Shown here piece by piece: positions 501 through 50,448 of a DNA stretch of 64,000 nt (within the stretch, counting starts at the first letter, position 1; each line of letters begins with the position of its first letter). A program made the translations under genes and the position numbers. A model generated the notes under the pieces. The model had not been told where the DNA came from and ran no database searches. It was given only the letters and a program-made list of their open reading frames with translations. Source of the DNA: Dictyostelium discoideum (taxonomy: Eukaryota); contig CM000153.2 in NCBI GenBank assembly GCA_000004695.1, forward strand, positions 3,456,001-3,520,000. Reading direction: 5' to 3'.

Positions 501-2534
501 TTAAAATTGTTTTTTACTAATATTAATACTATTATCATCTTGATAAAAGAATAAATTGTCAACCTCGCCAGCTATTTGTAATTTTTCTCTTTGATAGTTA
601 CTATCAGTACCACCACTACCATCATCGATATCAGCCTCACCATTGCTAACATGTAAAAGAGATTGATTTTCATCAGCACTTGGTATATGATCCAATTGAG
701 AGAATTTTAAATCCATTCTATTTTTAGCACGTTTTTCAAGCATAGAGTCAACTGTTTTCTTTAGAGTGACCCTATAGAAAATAAACAATGTAGCTAGCAC
801 TAGGAGAACACAACCACTAACTAATAAACCAATTAAAAGCTTTTGAGAAGATGTTAAATTTTTTGGATTTTTTTTAATTTCACCATTGAAATAACATTGA
901 TCACATAGATAAATTTCATCAGTATTTGAAATATAGGTTTGAGTATCACTTGAGATATAAGAGTTTTTACCAATAATTGGATAACTTGAAAAGAGTACAC
1001 TATTAATTAAATTTACTGTTGAATTAATTAAATTTAAATCACTAAAACCTATTCCTTTATCCCTAAATTGAACATTATTAAAAGTATAAGCACCACAATT
1101 ATTTAATGAAAATAATGACATTCCACTATTATTATCATTATCACTACTACTACTATCACCATTACTGTTTGTATAATTTAAATTATTTTGAATTGAAATA
1201 TCTTGAAATGTAAAATTATTATTAAAATTATTTGAAATATTATCAGTAAATTGAATACTTATCAATGAAATAGCATTATCAGATGAGGTGGTAACATCTA
1301 AGAATTGATTGAGATTAATATTCAAATCATTAACTATTATATAATCATATTGATATAATTGTAATTGTCCATTATTTTGACTTTGATAAAATTGAATTGA
1401 TTCATTTTGGAAAATACTTAAAAAACTATTTAAATTATTATTTTGAGTTATTAAATTTGATTCAAATCTAATATTTGTATTACAATTTAATAAGAATATA
1501 AAAGGTGATATATTATTATTATTATTATTTTTATTATTATTATTATTATTATTATTATTATTATTATTATTATTATTATTATTATTGTTGCTTGTTGTAT
1601 CATAGAAATCATTATATTTAATTGTCGATGAAAACATTCTTATTCCACCATTTTCAATACTAATGAATGAATTATTTGAAAATTTAGAATTTTTAATAGT
1701 ACTTGTTAAAATTTGAAGTTTTGAATTTATAATTTTAAATGTTGGTAATAAAGTTGGATTTGTATTATTAAAAGTACATGATACAATTATAATTGAATTT
1801 AATGTTAATTTATTATTATTACTATTATTATTATTATTATTAGCTGTATTATTATTAATTGATATTGAATTTACTATTACACCATTAATCTGATAAAAAT
1901 TTGAATTATAAATATGAAATAATGATAATGTTGAAGCATTGGTTTGAATATCAAATATTGTTGTGTTATTATTAAATTGTGTGAATGTGAAATTACTAAT
2001 TCTTATATCCATATATTTTAATTGATATTGATTAGTTTGTTTAATTGTTAAAAATGGTAAATTTATATTATTATTTTCACTATTGATTATTATATTGTTA
2101 TTATTATTATTGGTGTTATTAATATAATTGTTTATATATATTGACGAAAATCCAAATAAATTACCCAAAACTGATGTTGAATCATTATTGGTTATATTAT
2201 AAAATGGATTTGTTAATTGGATTATTAATTGAGTAGAACTTGTAAAATTATTTAAAAGGAATGATCTTGCTCTATCACCTGCATCCCCTAGTTTAATACA
2301 TGGTGGTTCATTATTATCTATATTACCACATTTACTATTATTATATTTTATAGGACTATTACTATTTACAAATAATGTTAGTGTTGGTGGTAATATTGGT
2401 GTTGGTGTGGTTGTTGTTGTTGTAGGTGAAGGTAGTTGTGTGGATAATAATAATAATGATGATGTTGATGATGATGATGATGATGATGTTTGTATTAATA
2501 AATTAATTAAAAGAAATAAATAAATATTTATCAT
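501..2534 (-). CDS. L-family type-I membrane glycoprotein (divergent member), 677 aa
   Basis: This is an intact ORF. It has a hydrophobic N-terminal signal (MINIYLFLLINLLIQ) and a Thr/Pro stretch. It carries the L-family Cys motif K-C-G-N...PPCIKLGDAGDRA and LGNLFGF, plus long poly-Asn tracts and many NxS/T sites. The C-terminus has one TM helix (LLIGLLVSGCVLLVLATLFIF) and then a charged tail. It appears to be a single exon. Confidence 0.6.
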   Translation of the reverse strand: MINIYLFLLINLLIQTSSSSSSSTSSLLLLSTQLPSPTTTTTTPTPILPPTLTLFVNSNSPIKYNNSKCGNIDNNEPPCIKLGDAGDRARSFLLNNFTSSTQLIIQLTNPFYNITNNDSTSVLGNLFGFSSIYINNYINNTNNNNNNIIINSENNNINLPFLTIKQTNQYQLKYMDIRISNFTFTQFNNNTTIFDIQTNASTLSLFHIYNSNFYQINGVIVNSISINNNTANNNNNNSNNNKLTLNSIIIVSCTFNNTNPTLLPTFKIINSKLQILTSTIKNSKFSNNSFISIENGGIRMFSSTIKYNDFYDTTSNNNNNNNNNNNNNNNNNNNKNNNNNNISPFIFLLNCNTNIRFESNLITQNNNLNSFLSIFQNESIQFYQSQNNGQLQLYQYDYIIVNDLNINLNQFLDVTTSSDNAISLISIQFTDNISNNFNNNFTFQDISIQNNLNYTNSNGDSSSSDNDNNSGMSLFSLNNCGAYTFNNVQFRDKGIGFSDLNLINSTVNLINSVLFSSYPIIGKNSYISSDTQTYISNTDEIYLCDQCYFNGEIKKNPKNLTSSQKLLIGLLVSGCVLLVLATLFIFYRVTLKKTVDSMLEKRAKNRMDLKFSQLDHIPSADENQSLLHVSNGEADIDDGSGGTDSNYQREKLQIAGEVDNLFFYQDDNSINISKKQF

Positions 2535-2595
2535 TATTTTATTTTATATTTTATCACCACAACTAATTCAAAATAAATAAAAATAAAAAAAAAAT

Positions 2596-2700
2596 TTATC
2601 CAAAATATTAGTGATGTAACCGGTAGTCATAAACAAAAAAAAAAAAAAAAAAAAAGTTATCCAAAATATTAGTGATGTAACCGGTAGTCATAAACAAAAA
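2596..2700. repeat. Two tandem copies of a 61-bp unit (ttatccaaaatattagtgatgtaaccggtagtcataaac + A-run)
   Basis: The two units show an exact 38-bp match at 2596..2633 and 2657..2694. They lie in the divergent intergenic region between genes 501..2534 (-) and 3087..4253 (+). The GC-containing core gtgatgtaaccggtagtcat stands out in poly-A/T background. Confidence 0.8.
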
Positions 2701-48284: not shown

Positions 48285-48615
48285 ATCCTTAAATAAATAA
48301 AAAAAATAAAAATAAAAAAAATAAAAAATAAATAAAAATAAAAAAAAATATGTAAATTAAAACCCCAAAATTTTTTTTTTTTTTTTTTTTTTTTTTGATT
48401 ATTTTTTTTTTTTCAAATATTTAAATCTAGTGATTCTATTATTAGATTTTTTTTTTTATTTTTTTTAACCCATACTTTTTTATTTTCATTTTTTATTTTT
48501 TTTTTGATCTATTTTTTGTAAACCAACCAAATGTTTTTTTTTTTTTTTTTTTTTACCTCATATTTTTTTTTTTTTTTTTTATAAATTAAAGTAATAAATA
48601 AAATTAAATAAAACC

Positions 48616-50448
48616 ATGAAAGAATTTATATATTATTATTTTTTATTTTATTTTTTTATTAAAATTATAAATTCTGAAAATATTATTTTTGTAGATTATA
48701 ATATTAAGAGGAATTATAATTCATTTGATGAATGTGGTAGCAGTGATCAACCAATTTGCACATCTTTCGAGGATGCAATCAATAAAGTAATTTTAATATC
48801 AATCAATTCTTTAGATACTCCTACTATTTATATAAATATAATTGGTGATATTAATGGTACAAATATAATATCATTAGGTAATTTATATAATTTTTGTGGT
48901 ACTCTATATATTAGATCAAATAGTAGTAATTCCAATATAAATATTGATGGAACAAATTCAACTCAACAACCATTTCTAATAATTCAAGAACCAGATGAAA
49001 TTAATTTAACAATTTCAAAATGTACAAAAAAAAGAGTTTTTATATTTCAACGTTTAAATTTTATAAATTGGGATCAAACTATTATTAGTATAAATATTAA
49101 TCAAGAAATTAACGATCAACCAATTGATCAATCAAAATTTTTTCAAATATTAATGGTTGATACTTTTATAATTTCATCAAGTAGTATAATATTTGTAAAT
49201 CCAAAGAATTCAAAAGATTTATTTAAAAATTATAATTTTAAGGGTTTACAATTTTATTTTACAACTTCATATTGTATTAATATGAAATCTTCAAAACTAT
49301 TAGCTCCGAATTCTACAGATAATTTTTTACCACCAATTTATATTATTGGTGGTTCGATTATAAGGTTTTTTAATATTCAAAATAGTTCAATATTATCAAC
49401 TCCTTTTATTTATATTAAAAGTGGATCATTGGAATTTGTTAATGATATTTCAATATCAAATAATAACTTTTCAATTTATCCAATTGTTTTATTAATAAAT
49501 TCAAAGTTTTCAACTTTAAAAACAATTTCATTCAATGAAAATGAATTTTTTACTTTTTTTTTATTTTATGAATGCCAAACTCAACCAATCACACCAATTA
49601 ACTTTTTTAATAATATTCAACCACATCAATCAAATTATCAGAGAAAATTATATCTAGGAATTCAATTGGAAAATTCAGTAACTGTAATAAAAAATAGCCA
49701 TTTTACAATACAGGAATATTTAAAGTTTACTTTAAATTTAAATAATACTATTGGAAATGATATATTTTATGTTGAAAATAGTAATTTTATTATTCAATTT
49801 TTGGGATTGGAAAGATTGATTCAAGGTAATCATATGATTAAGGTAATCAATAGTATAGTAACTTTTCAAAATATAGATTTAAAATGGGACGGATTTCCAA
49901 TTATTGGTTCAAACTCAACAATTGATTTCATATATTGTAAAAATTTAAATAATTCATTTTGTGGTTGCTCTACTTGTAATTTTTTAAATCAATCTTTTAA
50001 TTGTGATTTTAGTTCTTCAACAGCATCATCTTTTGAACCAACCGAAACTCCAACTCTTTCTGAAACTAATTCTCCCACAAACACTCAAACACCACCTACA
50101 ATAACCGAGACTCCAACTCATTCTAAAACCAATACCCCAACAAATACTCAAACCCCAAAAATAAACGAAACGCAACCATTTATAACAAATACCCCAACAC
50201 CAACACAAACTTTAAAAAAATCAAATAAAAATAGGAATATAGCTATTATTGTTGTAACTATAGTTTTAGGTGTCACATCAATTGTTTCACTTTTAATATT
50301 TTCAATATATAAAAGATATAATTCTAAATTATCAATTAGGGATAATGATAACATGTTTGGAGCTGGTGATGAAAAAGCATTCTCACCAAGTTTTGATATT
50401 GTGACACCCAATATAAATGAAGATTGCGGTCAAAAAGAAGGATTATAA
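48616..50448 (+). CDS. L-family type-I membrane glycoprotein, 610 aa
   Basis: It has a signal peptide. Motifs are FDECGSSDQPICTSFEDAINKV, LGNLYNFCG, FINWDQT, NPKN, LPPIYIIGG and C-G-C-S-T-C-N-F. The stalk is a T/P/Q-rich repeat (ETPT.S.TNTPTNTQTP). The TM helix is IAIIVVTIVLGVTSIVSLLIFSI. The tail is divergent (…DEKAFSPSFDIV…). Confidence 0.7.
   Translation: MKEFIYYYFLFYFFIKIINSENIIFVDYNIKRNYNSFDECGSSDQPICTSFEDAINKVILISINSLDTPTIYINIIGDINGTNIISLGNLYNFCGTLYIRSNSSNSNINIDGTNSTQQPFLIIQEPDEINLTISKCTKKRVFIFQRLNFINWDQTIISININQEINDQPIDQSKFFQILMVDTFIISSSSIIFVNPKNSKDLFKNYNFKGLQFYFTTSYCINMKSSKLLAPNSTDNFLPPIYIIGGSIIRFFNIQNSSILSTPFIYIKSGSLEFVNDISISNNNFSIYPIVLLINSKFSTLKTISFNENEFFTFFLFYECQTQPITPINFFNNIQPHQSNYQRKLYLGIQLENSVTVIKNSHFTIQEYLKFTLNLNNTIGNDIFYVENSNFIIQFLGLERLIQGNHMIKVINSIVTFQNIDLKWDGFPIIGSNSTIDFIYCKNLNNSFCGCSTCNFLNQSFNCDFSSSTASSFEPTETPTLSETNSPTNTQTPPTITETPTHSKTNTPTNTQTPKINETQPFITNTPTPTQTLKKSNKNRNIAIIVVTIVLGVTSIVSLLIFSIYKRYNSKLSIRDNDNMFGAGDEKAFSPSFDIVTPNINEDCGQKEGL

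What the first reader, a model, noticed from the sequence alone, without database searches (positions are those of the whole stretch)
501..50448. About 50 kb array of interleaved L and S secreted gene families: candidate co-evolving receptor/ligand (adhesion or recognition) locus
Twelve L-family loci (11 intact, 1 pseudogene) and 7 S-family loci lie in one array. L and S genes are nearest neighbours in at least six places. The pairs are 10393+/13352+, 15998+/18787+/19963+, 22635+/24410-/26506-, 30954+/32592-/34502-, 37674-/40907+ and 47514+/48616+. L ectodomains share a fixed Cys framework and the motifs F-x-N-W-x-Q-T, YPKN and LPPIY[IV]VG[AG]. They differ in their membrane presentation. Some are soluble, one is GPI-like, and others have a mucin stalk, a TM helix and a conserved tail. 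S proteins are small and secreted. Both families show mosaic rapid divergence. Repeated physical pairing of a small secreted protein with a large surface glycoprotein, plus copy-number dynamics, is the architecture seen at allorecognition or adhesion loci such as tgrB1/tgrC1. This is a hypothesis only. I cannot name either family from memory and cannot state whether they are already described.
Basis: partly seen in the sequence, partly recalled or inferred. Interest (0 to 1): 0.8.

Follow-up and report, generated by a model that had tools for sequence, protein, structure and literature searches.

The report
Paired beta-helix and helical-bundle gene array
This 50-kb stretch of Dictyostelium discoideum holds an undescribed, lineage-specific family of beta-helix surface glycoproteins in which every membrane-anchored copy sits beside its own small helical-bundle protein gene; the pairing is old and real, but nothing yet shows it is a kin-recognition locus.

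Summary
The window is D. discoideum AX4 (DDB_G02856xx/02857xx genes). The L family is real: 11 intact genes and one internally deleted pseudogene. The S family is real but has 5 members, not 7. The gene at 13352 is iliA and is not detectably an S gene.

Each S gene lies next to one of the five L genes that carry a mucin stalk, a TM helix and a conserved acidic tail (permutation p about 0.005). The block soluble-L / S / TM-L is conserved in D. purpureum. A lone TM-L + S pair lies on another chromosome. L and S distance matrices mirror each other (Mantel r 0.88-0.95).

The array changes by segmental duplication, gene conversion, pseudogenisation and gain or loss of whole L+S pairs between strains. 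Most orthologues diverge at the local baseline. Only S40907 and the adjacent 5' part of L37674 are strongly elevated. The sparse expression data point to the vegetative stage. Functional coupling is likely, and allorecognition is unproven.

The parts
501..2534 (-). L501: the most divergent L member. It has an N-terminal STP-rich region, Asn-rich inserts, a TM helix and an unrelated tail. No S gene lies next to it.
4993..6417 (-). L4993 (DDB_G0285769): soluble L of the same subfamily as L15998. Its N-terminal 275 codons are homogenised with L15998 (dS 0.03-0.07), while the C-terminal part is very divergent.
10396..12270 (+). L10393 (DDB_G0285729): beta-helix, Thr-rich stalk and a C-terminal hydrophobic GPI-like signal.
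13352..14119 (+). iliA (DDB_G0285615): a small protein with a signal-peptide-like N-terminus (as read from the sequence; the 19-residue hydropathy scan flagged no hydrophobic segment) that lies inside the array.
15998..17428 (+). L15998 (EAL64646): soluble L and first gene of the ancestral block soluble-L / S / TM-L. Its orthologue is D. purpureum DICPUDRAFT_78538.
18787..19530 (+). S18787 (DDB_G0285619): S member of the ancestral block. The annotated ORF has no signal peptide. The protein was detected in vegetative cells.
19963..21627 (+). L19963 (DDB_G0285621): TM-type L with the conserved tail, partner of S18787.
22635..24047 (+). L22635 (DDB_G0285771): soluble L, first gene of duplicated triplet copy 1.
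24410..25210 (-). S24410 (DDB_G0285623): S with a signal peptide, triplet copy 1.
26506..28356 (-). L26506: TM-type L with a PTDT-repeat stalk and the conserved tail, partner of S24410. This ectodomain was used for the structure model.
30954..32375 (+). L30954 (DDB_G0285627): soluble L, triplet copy 2 (88% identical to L22635).
32592..33392 (-). S32592 (DDB_G0285629): S, triplet copy 2 (91% identical to S24410, with blocks of zero divergence).
34502..36259 (-). L34502 (DDB_G0285775): TM-type L, triplet copy 2. It has an 8-residue deletion next to the NW motif.
36765..37648 (-). L pseudogene: a copy of L37674 that lacks residues about 157-421 and the start codon. The matching gene is an open 589-codon ORF in isolate ACTFIR.
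37674..39545 (-). L37674 (DDB_G0285631): TM-type L, transcribed divergently from S40907. Its 5' half is more diverged between isolates than its 3' half.
40907..41686 (+). S40907 (DDB_G0285633): the fastest-evolving member. Amino-acid identity is 73-81% across most pairs of the five genomes (91% between ACTFIR and ACTFIW). AX4 is about equally distant from all the others (dS 0.31-0.40).
47514..48284 (+). S47514 (DDB_G0285791): S gene lying 332 bp upstream of its TM-L partner.
48616..50448 (+). L48616 (DDB_G0285423): TM-type L with a shortened tail, partner of S47514. Other isolates carry extra L or L+S genes just downstream.
22406..36662 (.). Tandem segmental duplication of the triplet soluble-L / S / TM-L: 22406-28782 against 30718-36662, at 84-91% DNA identity.

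Best explanation
The locus is a lineage-specific multigene array found in group-4 Dictyostelium. It grew by repeated duplication of an ancestral block of three genes:
(i) a secreted beta-helix glycoprotein (soluble L);
(ii) a roughly 26-kDa all-alpha helical-bundle protein (S);
(iii) a type-I membrane protein (TM-L) with a beta-helix ectodomain, a mucin-like stalk, one TM helix and a conserved acidic cytoplasmic tail (juxtamembrane YKRHKNxKY, then [DE]-rich ...VSP... YExxxED.A.LE).

Shown here:
- Each S gene stays next to one tail-bearing TM-L gene.
- The two families have diversified in parallel as units.
- The array changes by segmental duplication, gene conversion between paralogues, pseudogenisation, inversion, and gain or loss of whole L+S pairs.

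Inferred:
- TM-L is a glycan-binding, or possibly glycan-cleaving, receptor on the cell surface or in the endocytic pathway. Its variable central and C-terminal coils would set specificity, and its conserved tail would direct sorting or signalling.
- S is its dedicated partner, acting as a ligand, co-factor or regulator.
- The soluble L forms act as secreted counterparts.
- The few expression data favour a role in the feeding amoeba (contact with bacteria or environmental polysaccharides) over developmental kin recognition.
For: The families and their architecture are established.

Distribution. An exhaustive HMMER search of 1.84 billion representative proteins returned 22 L hits. Every one that was named came from Dictyostelium, including D. 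purpureum. S was also found only in these species.

Pairing.
- The five S genes each pair with one of the five tail-bearing TM-L genes (p=0.0016, or 0.005 after collapsing the duplicate).
- A solitary TM-L + S pair lies on another contig.
- D. purpureum keeps the same order and strand. Its soluble L is the orthologue of L15998 (E 7e-58). Its S matches S18787 best. Its TM-L carries the same DNDVSPNLES...ED tail as L19963.
- L genes without the tail have no S partner, including the D. citrinum L-CBM49 singleton.
- Mantel correlation of L and S distances is r=0.95 (p=5e-5), or r=0.88 (p=9e-4) without the recent duplicate.
- The tail is often as conserved as the ectodomain or more so, for example 74% against 40%.

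Dynamics.
- Paralogues show mosaic blocks of dS=0.
- In isolate ACTFIR the AX4 pseudogene is an open ORF, the L22635 orthologue carries a frameshift, and an extra L+S pair is present.
- In ACTFIY a triplet lies inverted on the other side of L48616.

Constraint. L and S dN/dS is 0.22-0.46, against 0.08-0.17 for three flanking genes.

Stage.
- DDB_G0285619 protein is highest in the first two of five stage columns. I read these as vegetative and aggregation; the column header was not seen.
- Its mRNA is present in axenic cells and falls on B. subtilis, M. marinum and K. pneumoniae.
- DDB_G0285773, a gene in the L26506 region, also falls.
Against: - No direct evidence shows that L and S bind each other. 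AF-Multimer could not be run.
- Co-duplication of neighbouring genes alone can produce mirrored distance matrices.
- S18787 and its D. purpureum orthologue lack a signal peptide in every gene model examined. That is awkward for an extracellular partner.
- L has no conserved acidic or basic residues beyond about residue 200. Conserved polar residues cluster in the N-terminal coils. This neither proves nor excludes catalysis.
- Expression data cover only one S gene and perhaps one L gene.
- A D. citrinum L fused to a cellulose-binding CBM49 hints at a role in the developmental matrix for at least some members.
- The glycan-binding role is inferred from fold alone.
Confidence: 0.5

Rival explanations
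1. Allorecognition or adhesion locus. Cognate TM-L/S pairs act as polymorphic receptor and ligand that sort kin during aggregation, in the manner of tgrB1/tgrC1.
For: - The pairs are inherited together and diversify in parallel.
- Copy number and structure vary between isolates.
- L37674 and S40907 are transcribed divergently from a shared 1.36-kb intergenic region.
- That pair forms a block of raised divergence. S40907 has 73-81% amino-acid identity between most genomes. AX4 is equally distant from all other genomes (dS 0.31-0.40), while the local baseline to the two closest isolates is 0.06-0.10. dN/dS is about 1.07 between the two closest isolates. The shared intergenic region has about 10% mismatches, against 4% for a neighbouring spacer.
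- TM-L has a receptor-like conserved tail.
Against: - Four of the five pairs diverge at or only modestly above baseline, with dN/dS 0.2-0.5.
- The mosaic pattern is explained by gene conversion.
- S has no membrane anchor, and one S has no signal peptide.
- No TIG/IPT domains are present.
- The one protein with data peaks in vegetative cells and declines through development.
- The isolates compared are divergent lineages or cryptic species, not a population sample.
Confidence: 0.12
2. Enzyme plus inhibitor or chaperone pair. L proteins are beta-helix polysaccharide lyases or hydrolases acting on matrix or prey polysaccharides. S is a helical-bundle inhibitor or accessory protein, as in plant pectin methylesterase and PMEI.
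For: - A conserved polar cluster (D107, E121, K/R135, N146, W147, Q149, T150, K192) lies in the N-terminal coils.
- One D. citrinum L carries a cellulose-binding CBM49 (35.4 bits).
- S is a secreted helical bundle of about the right size.
Against: - No sequence match was found to any CAZy-type Pfam family or to PMEI.
- Adhesins with the same fold (Vag8, PfbA, SRRP) score as high as the enzymes.
- No invariant acidic pair lies in the central coils.
- A conserved cytoplasmic tail is not expected for a simple secreted enzyme.
Confidence: 0.15
3. Linkage without functional coupling. L and S are unrelated lineage-specific secreted proteins that were neighbours in the ancestor. They have been copied together by segmental duplication ever since.
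For: - Two of the five pairs are copies of one recent duplication.
- Mirrored trees are the expected result of co-duplication.
- Orientation and spacing of L relative to S differ between pairs (tandem S-then-L, tandem L-then-S, and divergent), so no shared regulatory layout is kept.
- No shared GC-containing upstream 8-mers were found.
Against: - The adjacency has survived the D. discoideum / D. purpureum split, a move to another chromosome, inversions, and repeated gain and loss.
- It is specific to tail-bearing TM-L genes. L genes that lost the tail are never found with a private S gene.
- Extra copies in other isolates usually arrive as L+S pairs, although ACTFIW and ACTFIZ show extra L genes with no S detected in the stretch fetched.
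Confidence: 0.18
4. Toxin or defence module. S is a ClyA-like alpha-pore-forming or membrane-active protein, and L is its targeting or immunity partner, used against bacteria or competitors.
For: - iliA, a Legionella-induced gene, lies in the array.
- Expression is vegetative and responds to bacteria.
Against: - Foldseek finds nothing significant. The best E-value is 0.12, and TM-scores to ClyA are 0.2-0.3.
- The S model has no hydrophobic head or beta-tongue between the long helices, and its loops are 8 residues or fewer.
- The mRNA goes down, not up, on bacteria.
Confidence: 0.05

Closest known systems
tgrB1/tgrC1 allorecognition pair of D. discoideum
   Same: - Adjacent, co-inherited pairs of surface or secreted protein genes in a structurally unstable multigene locus.
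- Duplication, recombination, pseudogenes and copy-number change between isolates (tgr dynamics as described in bioRxiv 10.1101/2025.08.01.668227).
- One pair (L37674/S40907) is transcribed divergently and is unusually diverged.
   Different: - L and S have no IPT/TIG domains.
- S is not a membrane protein.
- Four of the five pairs are not divergently transcribed.
- Most members diverge near baseline.
- The only expression data are vegetative.
- The locus is on a different chromosome, and the folds are unrelated.
Pectin-lyase-like right-handed parallel beta-helix superfamily (adhesins Vag8, PfbA and SRRP; polysaccharide lyases and hydrolases; phage tailspikes)
   Different: - Sequence identity is 6-13%.
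- No Pfam Beta_helix or PbH1 match and no PDB sequence match was found.
- L has its own Cys framework and motifs (NWxQT, PKN, PPIY..G, C-terminal CxxC).
- It has a eukaryotic type-I membrane, mucin-stalk or GPI presentation.
- It is restricted to group-4 Dictyostelium.
Plant pectin methylesterase / PMEI (beta-helix enzyme with a helical-bundle inhibitor)
   Same: The pairing is of the same general kind: an extracellular beta-helix protein and a small secreted helical-bundle protein. In plants the two are sometimes encoded together.
   Different: This is an analogy only. No sequence or specific structural similarity links S to PMEI. L has no PME catalytic motifs, and no activity is known.
ClyA-family alpha-pore-forming toxins (ClyA, YaxAB/XaxAB, Nhe/Hbl, MakA)
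   Different: - The match is not significant in Foldseek.
- S has no hydrophobic head domain and is about 100 residues shorter.
- The sequence-profile hits are generic coiled-coil noise.

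Membership tests
tgrB1/tgrC1-type allorecognition pair | Extracellular IPT/TIG repeats in both partners | tested here: not met
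   Pfam scans of 9 L and 4 S proteins gave no TIG/IPT hit at E<=0.1-1. The predicted folds are a beta-helix and a helical bundle.
tgrB1/tgrC1-type allorecognition pair | Both partners are single-pass membrane proteins | tested here: not met
   S proteins have no hydrophobic segment beyond the signal peptide.
tgrB1/tgrC1-type allorecognition pair | Divergently transcribed pair sharing one promoter region | tested here: inconclusive
   True for L37674(-)/S40907(+) only. The other four pairs are tandem or convergent with respect to the neighbouring L genes (coordinates).
tgrB1/tgrC1-type allorecognition pair | Extreme polymorphism between isolates | tested here: inconclusive
   Against ACTFIR, most L and S genes are 91-97% identical with dS 0.06-0.16, against a baseline of 0.06-0.10. 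S40907 is 73-81% identical, with dS 0.31-0.40 between AX4 and the others. Only five divergent genomes were compared, and there is no population sample.
tgrB1/tgrC1-type allorecognition pair | Expression at aggregation or mound stage and a role in segregation | not testable with these tools
   Only DDB_G0285619 has data: highest in vegetative and aggregation proteomes and falling later.
Right-handed parallel beta-helix (pectin-lyase-like) fold | Stack of three-stranded coils forming a right-handed beta-helix | tested here: met
Right-handed parallel beta-helix (pectin-lyase-like) fold | Recognisable PbH1 / Beta_helix sequence repeats | tested here: not met
   No such Pfam hits. No PDB sequence hit at E<=1.
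Beta-helix polysaccharide lyase or hydrolase (enzyme) | Conserved catalytic acidic or basic residues in the central coils | tested here: inconclusive
   Conserved charged residues (E37, D52, R56, D107, E121, K/R135, K192) all lie in the N-terminal third, and none lies after about residue 200. Their spatial clustering could not be checked.
ClyA-family alpha-pore-forming toxin | Long helical tail bundle plus a hydrophobic head or beta-tongue, with significant structural similarity | tested here: not met
PMEI-type inhibitor | PF04043 four-helix bundle with conserved disulfides | tested here: not met
S family (as defined here) | Membership of the gene at 13352-14119 (iliA) | tested here: not met
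   No BLAST hit to any S, no HMM hit at E<=10, and hhalign probability 1.8%.

The most novel reading that the evidence does not exclude
The TM-L/S pairs form a second cognate recognition system in Dictyostelium, independent of tgr. In this reading each helical-bundle S protein binds only its own beta-helix receptor. At least one pair (L37674/S40907, divergently transcribed) would be kept as ancient, diversifying haplotypes used for self/non-self or mating-type-like discrimination. Alternatively, the pairs could be used for specific recognition of bacterial glycans.
Probability: 0.12. Interest if true: 0.8.

Novelty: new variant of a known kind. Interest (0 to 1): 0.5.

Why it matters
Dictyostelium is the main model for aggregative multicellularity, kin discrimination and amoeba-bacteria interactions, yet tgrB1/tgrC1 is the one locus described as a polymorphic paired-gene recognition system in the papers read here. 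This work defines two uncharacterised protein families and a three-gene block that has stayed together since before the D. discoideum / D. purpureum split. The block has been amplified, shuffled and partly lost between close isolates.

The result gives a concrete, testable candidate for a receptor-partner system. There are five natural cognate pairs for swap experiments, a conserved cytoplasmic tail to probe for signalling or sorting, and one pair with an unusually old haplotype. If L binds or cuts glycans, the array could explain part of how amoebae cope with diverse bacterial surfaces. If instead the pairing is only co-duplication, the locus is still a clean example of birth-and-death evolution with gene conversion in an AT-rich protist genome.

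Tried and rejected
- iliA (13352) as an S member: rejected by BLAST, HMM and hhalign.
- A seventh S locus or further L fragments: none found by tblastn or by a filter-free HMM search of all six frames.
- L as an 'agglutinin domain' protein, the database name of EAL64646 (L15998): no Pfam support.
- A hidden signal-peptide exon for S18787: a conserved hydrophobic upstream ORF followed by GTAAGT...AG exists in AX4 and ACTFIR, but the frames do not join. Nothing comparable exists in D. purpureum.
- Shared GC-containing 8-mers upstream of L and S genes: none present in 6 or more promoters.
- Foldseek against afdb50: the library was unavailable.
- Expression look-ups: the supplements of PMC6198379 and PMC6650454 contained no hits. 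PMC8327917, PMC12750705 and PMC2864575 had no supplementary files held as text.
- Literature searches by gene ID, UniProt ID and 'DG2044' found nothing on either family.
- tRNA and Rfam scans of the window were empty.
- An S gene next to the CBM49-bearing L of D. citrinum: none.

Full report
Identity of the window. The sequence has about 20% G+C. Exact protein look-ups place it in Dictyostelium discoideum AX4. The genes include DDB_G0285611, 0285769, 0285729, 0285615 (iliA), 0285619, 0285621, 0285771, 0285623, 0285627, 0285629, 0285775, 0285631, 0285633, 0285635, 0285791, 0285423 and 0285639. Apart from iliA, all are named 'hypothetical', 'transmembrane protein' or, in one case, 'agglutinin domain-containing'. 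Full-text searches by gene ID, UniProt accession and old name found no paper that discusses either family.

Check of the observation. The invariant positions include several Cys, a D-A in an N-terminal helix, an N-W motif, and several G and P residues. Pairwise identities range from 26% to 88%.

A twelfth copy at 36765-37648(-) is a pseudogene. It matches residues 22-156 and 422-622 of the neighbouring L37674, with a frame change and an internal deletion.

The S family is also real but smaller than claimed. There are five genes (18787, 24410, 32592, 40907, 47514), with 28-91% identity. An S-family HMM run with all filters off over every six-frame ORF of the window finds those five at E<1e-80. 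The next hit has E=0.058. The gene at 13352 is iliA ('induced after Legionella infection'). It shows no BLAST, HMM or profile-profile similarity to S. I could not find a seventh S gene.

The membrane architectures are as described:
- four soluble L proteins (4993, 15998, 22635, 30954);
- one with a Thr-rich stalk and a C-terminal hydrophobic GPI-like end (10393);
- five with an STP-rich stalk, a TM helix and a shared tail (19963, 26506, 34502, 37674, 48616);
- one divergent TM form with an unrelated tail (501).

What the proteins are. Neither family matches any Pfam model. The L profile matches no PDB sequence. An AlphaFold2 model of the L26506 ectodomain, built on a 32-sequence alignment, is confident (pLDDT 86.5, pTM 0.88). 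It consists of an N-terminal helix followed by many short strands.

Conserved charged and polar residues (E37, D52, R56, D107, E121, K/R135, N146, W147, Q149, T150, K192) all lie in the N-terminal third. After about residue 200 only structural residues are conserved. Divergence between paralogues is also concentrated in that later part.

Distribution. A word-indexed search gave only Dictyostelium proteins for both families: D. discoideum isolates, 'cf. discoideum', D. citrinum, D. dimigraforme and D. firmibasis. An exhaustive HMMER search of 1.84 billion representative proteins returned 22 L hits. All the weak ones that I named are from Dictyostelium, including four from D. purpureum. Both families therefore appear to be inventions of group-4 dictyostelids, as far as HMMER can see.

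The pairing, restated. The key regularity is narrower and stronger than 'L and S are neighbours'. Each of the five S genes is adjacent to a different one of the five L genes that carry the stalk, TM helix and conserved tail:
- S18787 with L19963;
- S24410 with L26506;
- S32592 with L34502;
- S40907 with L37674;
- S47514 with L48616.

Shuffling the order of the 21 genes gives this outcome in 0.16% of trials. After collapsing the duplicated triplet the figure is 0.5%. Three of the pairs also have a soluble L on the other side of S, giving triplets of soluble-L / S / TM-L.

Independent loci show the same rule:
- In isolate ACTFIR, a solitary TM-L + S pair lies on a different chromosome-scale contig, with no other L or S gene nearby.
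- In D. purpureum, a contig with different flanking genes carries soluble-L / S / TM-L on one strand.
- That D. purpureum soluble L is the clear orthologue of L15998/L4993 (E 7e-58). Its S matches S18787 best. Its TM-L has the tail DNDVSPNLES..YEEDEDYAGLEKL, close to that of L19963.
- A D. citrinum L whose stalk and TM helix are replaced by a cellulose-binding CBM49 (35 bits) is a singleton with no S nearby.

Across eight pairs, the L-ectodomain and S distance matrices are strongly correlated. Mantel r is 0.95 (p=5e-5), or 0.88 (p=9e-4) without the recent duplicate. The pairs have therefore been copied and kept as units since before the D. discoideum / D. purpureum split.

The cytoplasmic tail consists of a juxtamembrane YKRHKNxKY, an acidic run, an invariant (V/F)SP, and then YExxxED.A.LE. 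It is often as conserved as the ectodomain or more so, for example 74% against 40% for L37674 compared with the second-locus L. This points to a sorting or signalling role.

How the array evolves. A 6-kb unit (22406-28782) is duplicated at 30718-36662. Within paralogue pairs, blocks with no substitutions at all lie next to blocks with dS 0.2-0.35. Examples of the zero-divergence blocks are S24410/S32592 codons 151-225 and L26506/L34502 codons 159-233 and 309-358. L4993 and L15998 lie 10 kb apart in opposite orientation. They are nearly identical over 275 codons and then diverge to dS about 1. This is the signature of gene conversion and recombination. Overall dN/dS is 0.25-0.5, with only an occasional 50-codon window above 1.

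I assembled 69.6 kb of the orthologous region from isolate ACTFIR. Holland et al. describe the wild isolates they sequenced as tropical 'D. discoideum', likely cryptic sister lineages, that are genetically diverged from AX4. The ACTFIR and ACTFIW assemblies are labelled D. discoideum and appear to come from that collection. This provenance is inferred from accession numbers, species labels and timing, not shown directly.

Three flanking genes give the local baseline between AX4 and ACTFIR: dS 0.06-0.10 and dN/dS 0.08-0.17. Most L and S orthologues sit at that dS, with dN/dS 0.22-0.46. They are less constrained than their neighbours but not hyper-polymorphic.

Gene content does differ between isolates:
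- The AX4 pseudogene corresponds to an open 589-codon ORF in ACTFIR.
- The ACTFIR orthologue of L22635 has a frameshift.
- ACTFIR has an extra TM-L + S pair downstream of L48616.
- ACTFIW and ACTFIZ have extra L genes at the same place.
- In ACTFIY a triplet lies inverted on that side.

One pair stands out. S40907 orthologues are only 73-81% identical across most pairs of the five genomes, and 91% between ACTFIR and ACTFIW. AX4 is about equally distant from all four others (dS 0.31-0.40), although for neighbouring genes it is closest to ACTFIR and ACTFIW (dS 0.06-0.10). Between those two close isolates S40907 has dN/dS about 1.07. The shared divergent intergenic region has about 10% mismatches, against 4% for a nearby spacer. 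The 5' half of L37674 is also more diverged than its 3' half. This looks like an old haplotype block or a conversion from an unsampled copy.

Expression. Little could be retrieved. In a life-cycle proteome, DDB_G0285619 (S18787) was the only family member found in the stored supplementary files. Those files were truncated when stored, and two L gene IDs were outside the search terms. Its five stage values are 3.9, 3.3, -0.4, -1.8 and -5.0. I read the column order (vegetative first) from the paper's abstract; I did not see the header.

In an RNA-seq study of cells exposed to bacteria, the same gene is well expressed in axenic cells. It falls 1-2.8 log2 units on B. subtilis, M. marinum and K. 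pneumoniae. DDB_G0285773, which probably belongs to the L26506 region, also falls. This points to a growth-phase role for at least the ancestral pair.

An oddity: S18787 and its D. purpureum orthologue begin MTIT(N/D)(Y/F), exactly where the other S proteins are cleaved. I found no joinable signal-peptide exon.

Interpretation. The following are shown:
- two new families;
- the beta-helix fold of L and the helical fold of S;
- specific, ancient, co-inherited pairing of S with tail-bearing TM-L;
- birth-and-death evolution with gene conversion;
- structural variation between isolates.

The following are inferred. S and TM-L work together. TM-L acts as a glycan-binding or glycan-cleaving receptor on the surface or in the endocytic pathway. 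Its variable coils set specificity and its tail directs trafficking or signalling. I rate this at about 0.5 as a package. Within it, the structural and evolutionary description is far more secure than the function.

The rivals are mere co-duplication (0.18), an enzyme-inhibitor module (0.15), allorecognition or adhesion (0.12) and a toxin module (0.05). The locus is not a member of the tgr family, because it has no TIG domains and S is not membrane-bound. Whether it 'works like' tgr is untested.

Verdict. The finding is real and the families appear undescribed. However, the S count and one of the listed pairs were wrong. The 'rapid divergence' is mostly gene conversion with moderate constraint. 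The allorecognition reading has only local support, at S40907/L37674.

Noticed in passing
window 3087-4253(+) and 8173-9387(+): A third paralogous family ('M'; DDB_G0285611 and its neighbour, 35-38% identity over 164 residues). It has a Mito_carr hit just above the Pfam cut-off (24.3 against 22.3 bits) and a weak DnaJ-like N-terminus. Each copy is oriented divergently from an L gene (L501/M3087 and L4993/M8173). DDB_G0285611 is also down-regulated (log2 fold change -2.16) in the bacterial-exposure RNA-seq.
   Followed up: partly
window 13352-14119(+): iliA (DDB_G0285615, 'induced after Legionella infection', said to be regulated by gskA/zakA) lies inside the array between the GPI-like L10393 and L15998. 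It is 94.9% identical in ACTFIR. Its link to the L genes is unknown.
   Followed up: partly
window 18566-18790: Upstream of S18787 lies a conserved hydrophobic mini-ORF (MRQFFNILTKFFFFFILKINILFTLFAF*), followed by GTAAGT...AG. It looks like a signal-peptide exon and intron but is out of frame with the main ORF in both AX4 and ACTFIR. The D. purpureum orthologue has nothing similar.
   Followed up: yes
window 2573-2728: A 61-bp tandem repeat (2.3-2.7 copies, 96% match) with unusually G+C-containing units lies in the short divergent intergenic region between L501 and M3087. It may be a regulatory element.
   Followed up: no
window 34502-36259(-): L34502 lacks about 8 residues (..SQRH|LNWDQT) just before the conserved NW motif, relative to its 86-88% identical twin L26506. 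It may be a decaying copy.
   Followed up: no
L009 8001-9734 (D. citrinum, P0044/P0045): In this L homologue the stalk and TM helix are replaced by a C-terminal CBM49 cellulose-binding domain (35.4 bits). It is a singleton locus without an S gene.
   Followed up: yes
window 11796-12275(-): A 159-aa Val-rich ORF lies antisense to the Thr-rich stalk of L10393. It is a compositional artefact, not a gene.
   Followed up: no
window 28357-30953: A 2.6-kb stretch between the two triplet copies has no ORF above 99 aa and no L or S remnants, tRNA or Rfam hit. RefSeq numbering suggests that two small gene models are annotated here or nearby.
   Followed up: partly
window 42174-45227(-), 4890-4994, 45516-45672: DDB_G0285635 (a C3H1 zinc-finger protein with long Asn and Asn-Glu runs) splits the array between S40907 and S47514. 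A 105-nt pure poly-T run and a 157-nt T-rich run flank genes. In the bacterial-exposure RNA-seq its sign is opposite to that of the family genes found there (+0.78).
   Followed up: no
L011 14831-20461 (ACTFIY) compared with window 22635-28356: In isolate ACTFIY a TM-L / S / soluble-L triplet of the L26506 / S24410 / L30954 type lies immediately downstream of the L48616 orthologue, in inverted order relative to AX4. This indicates an inversion or transposition within the array.
   Followed up: partly
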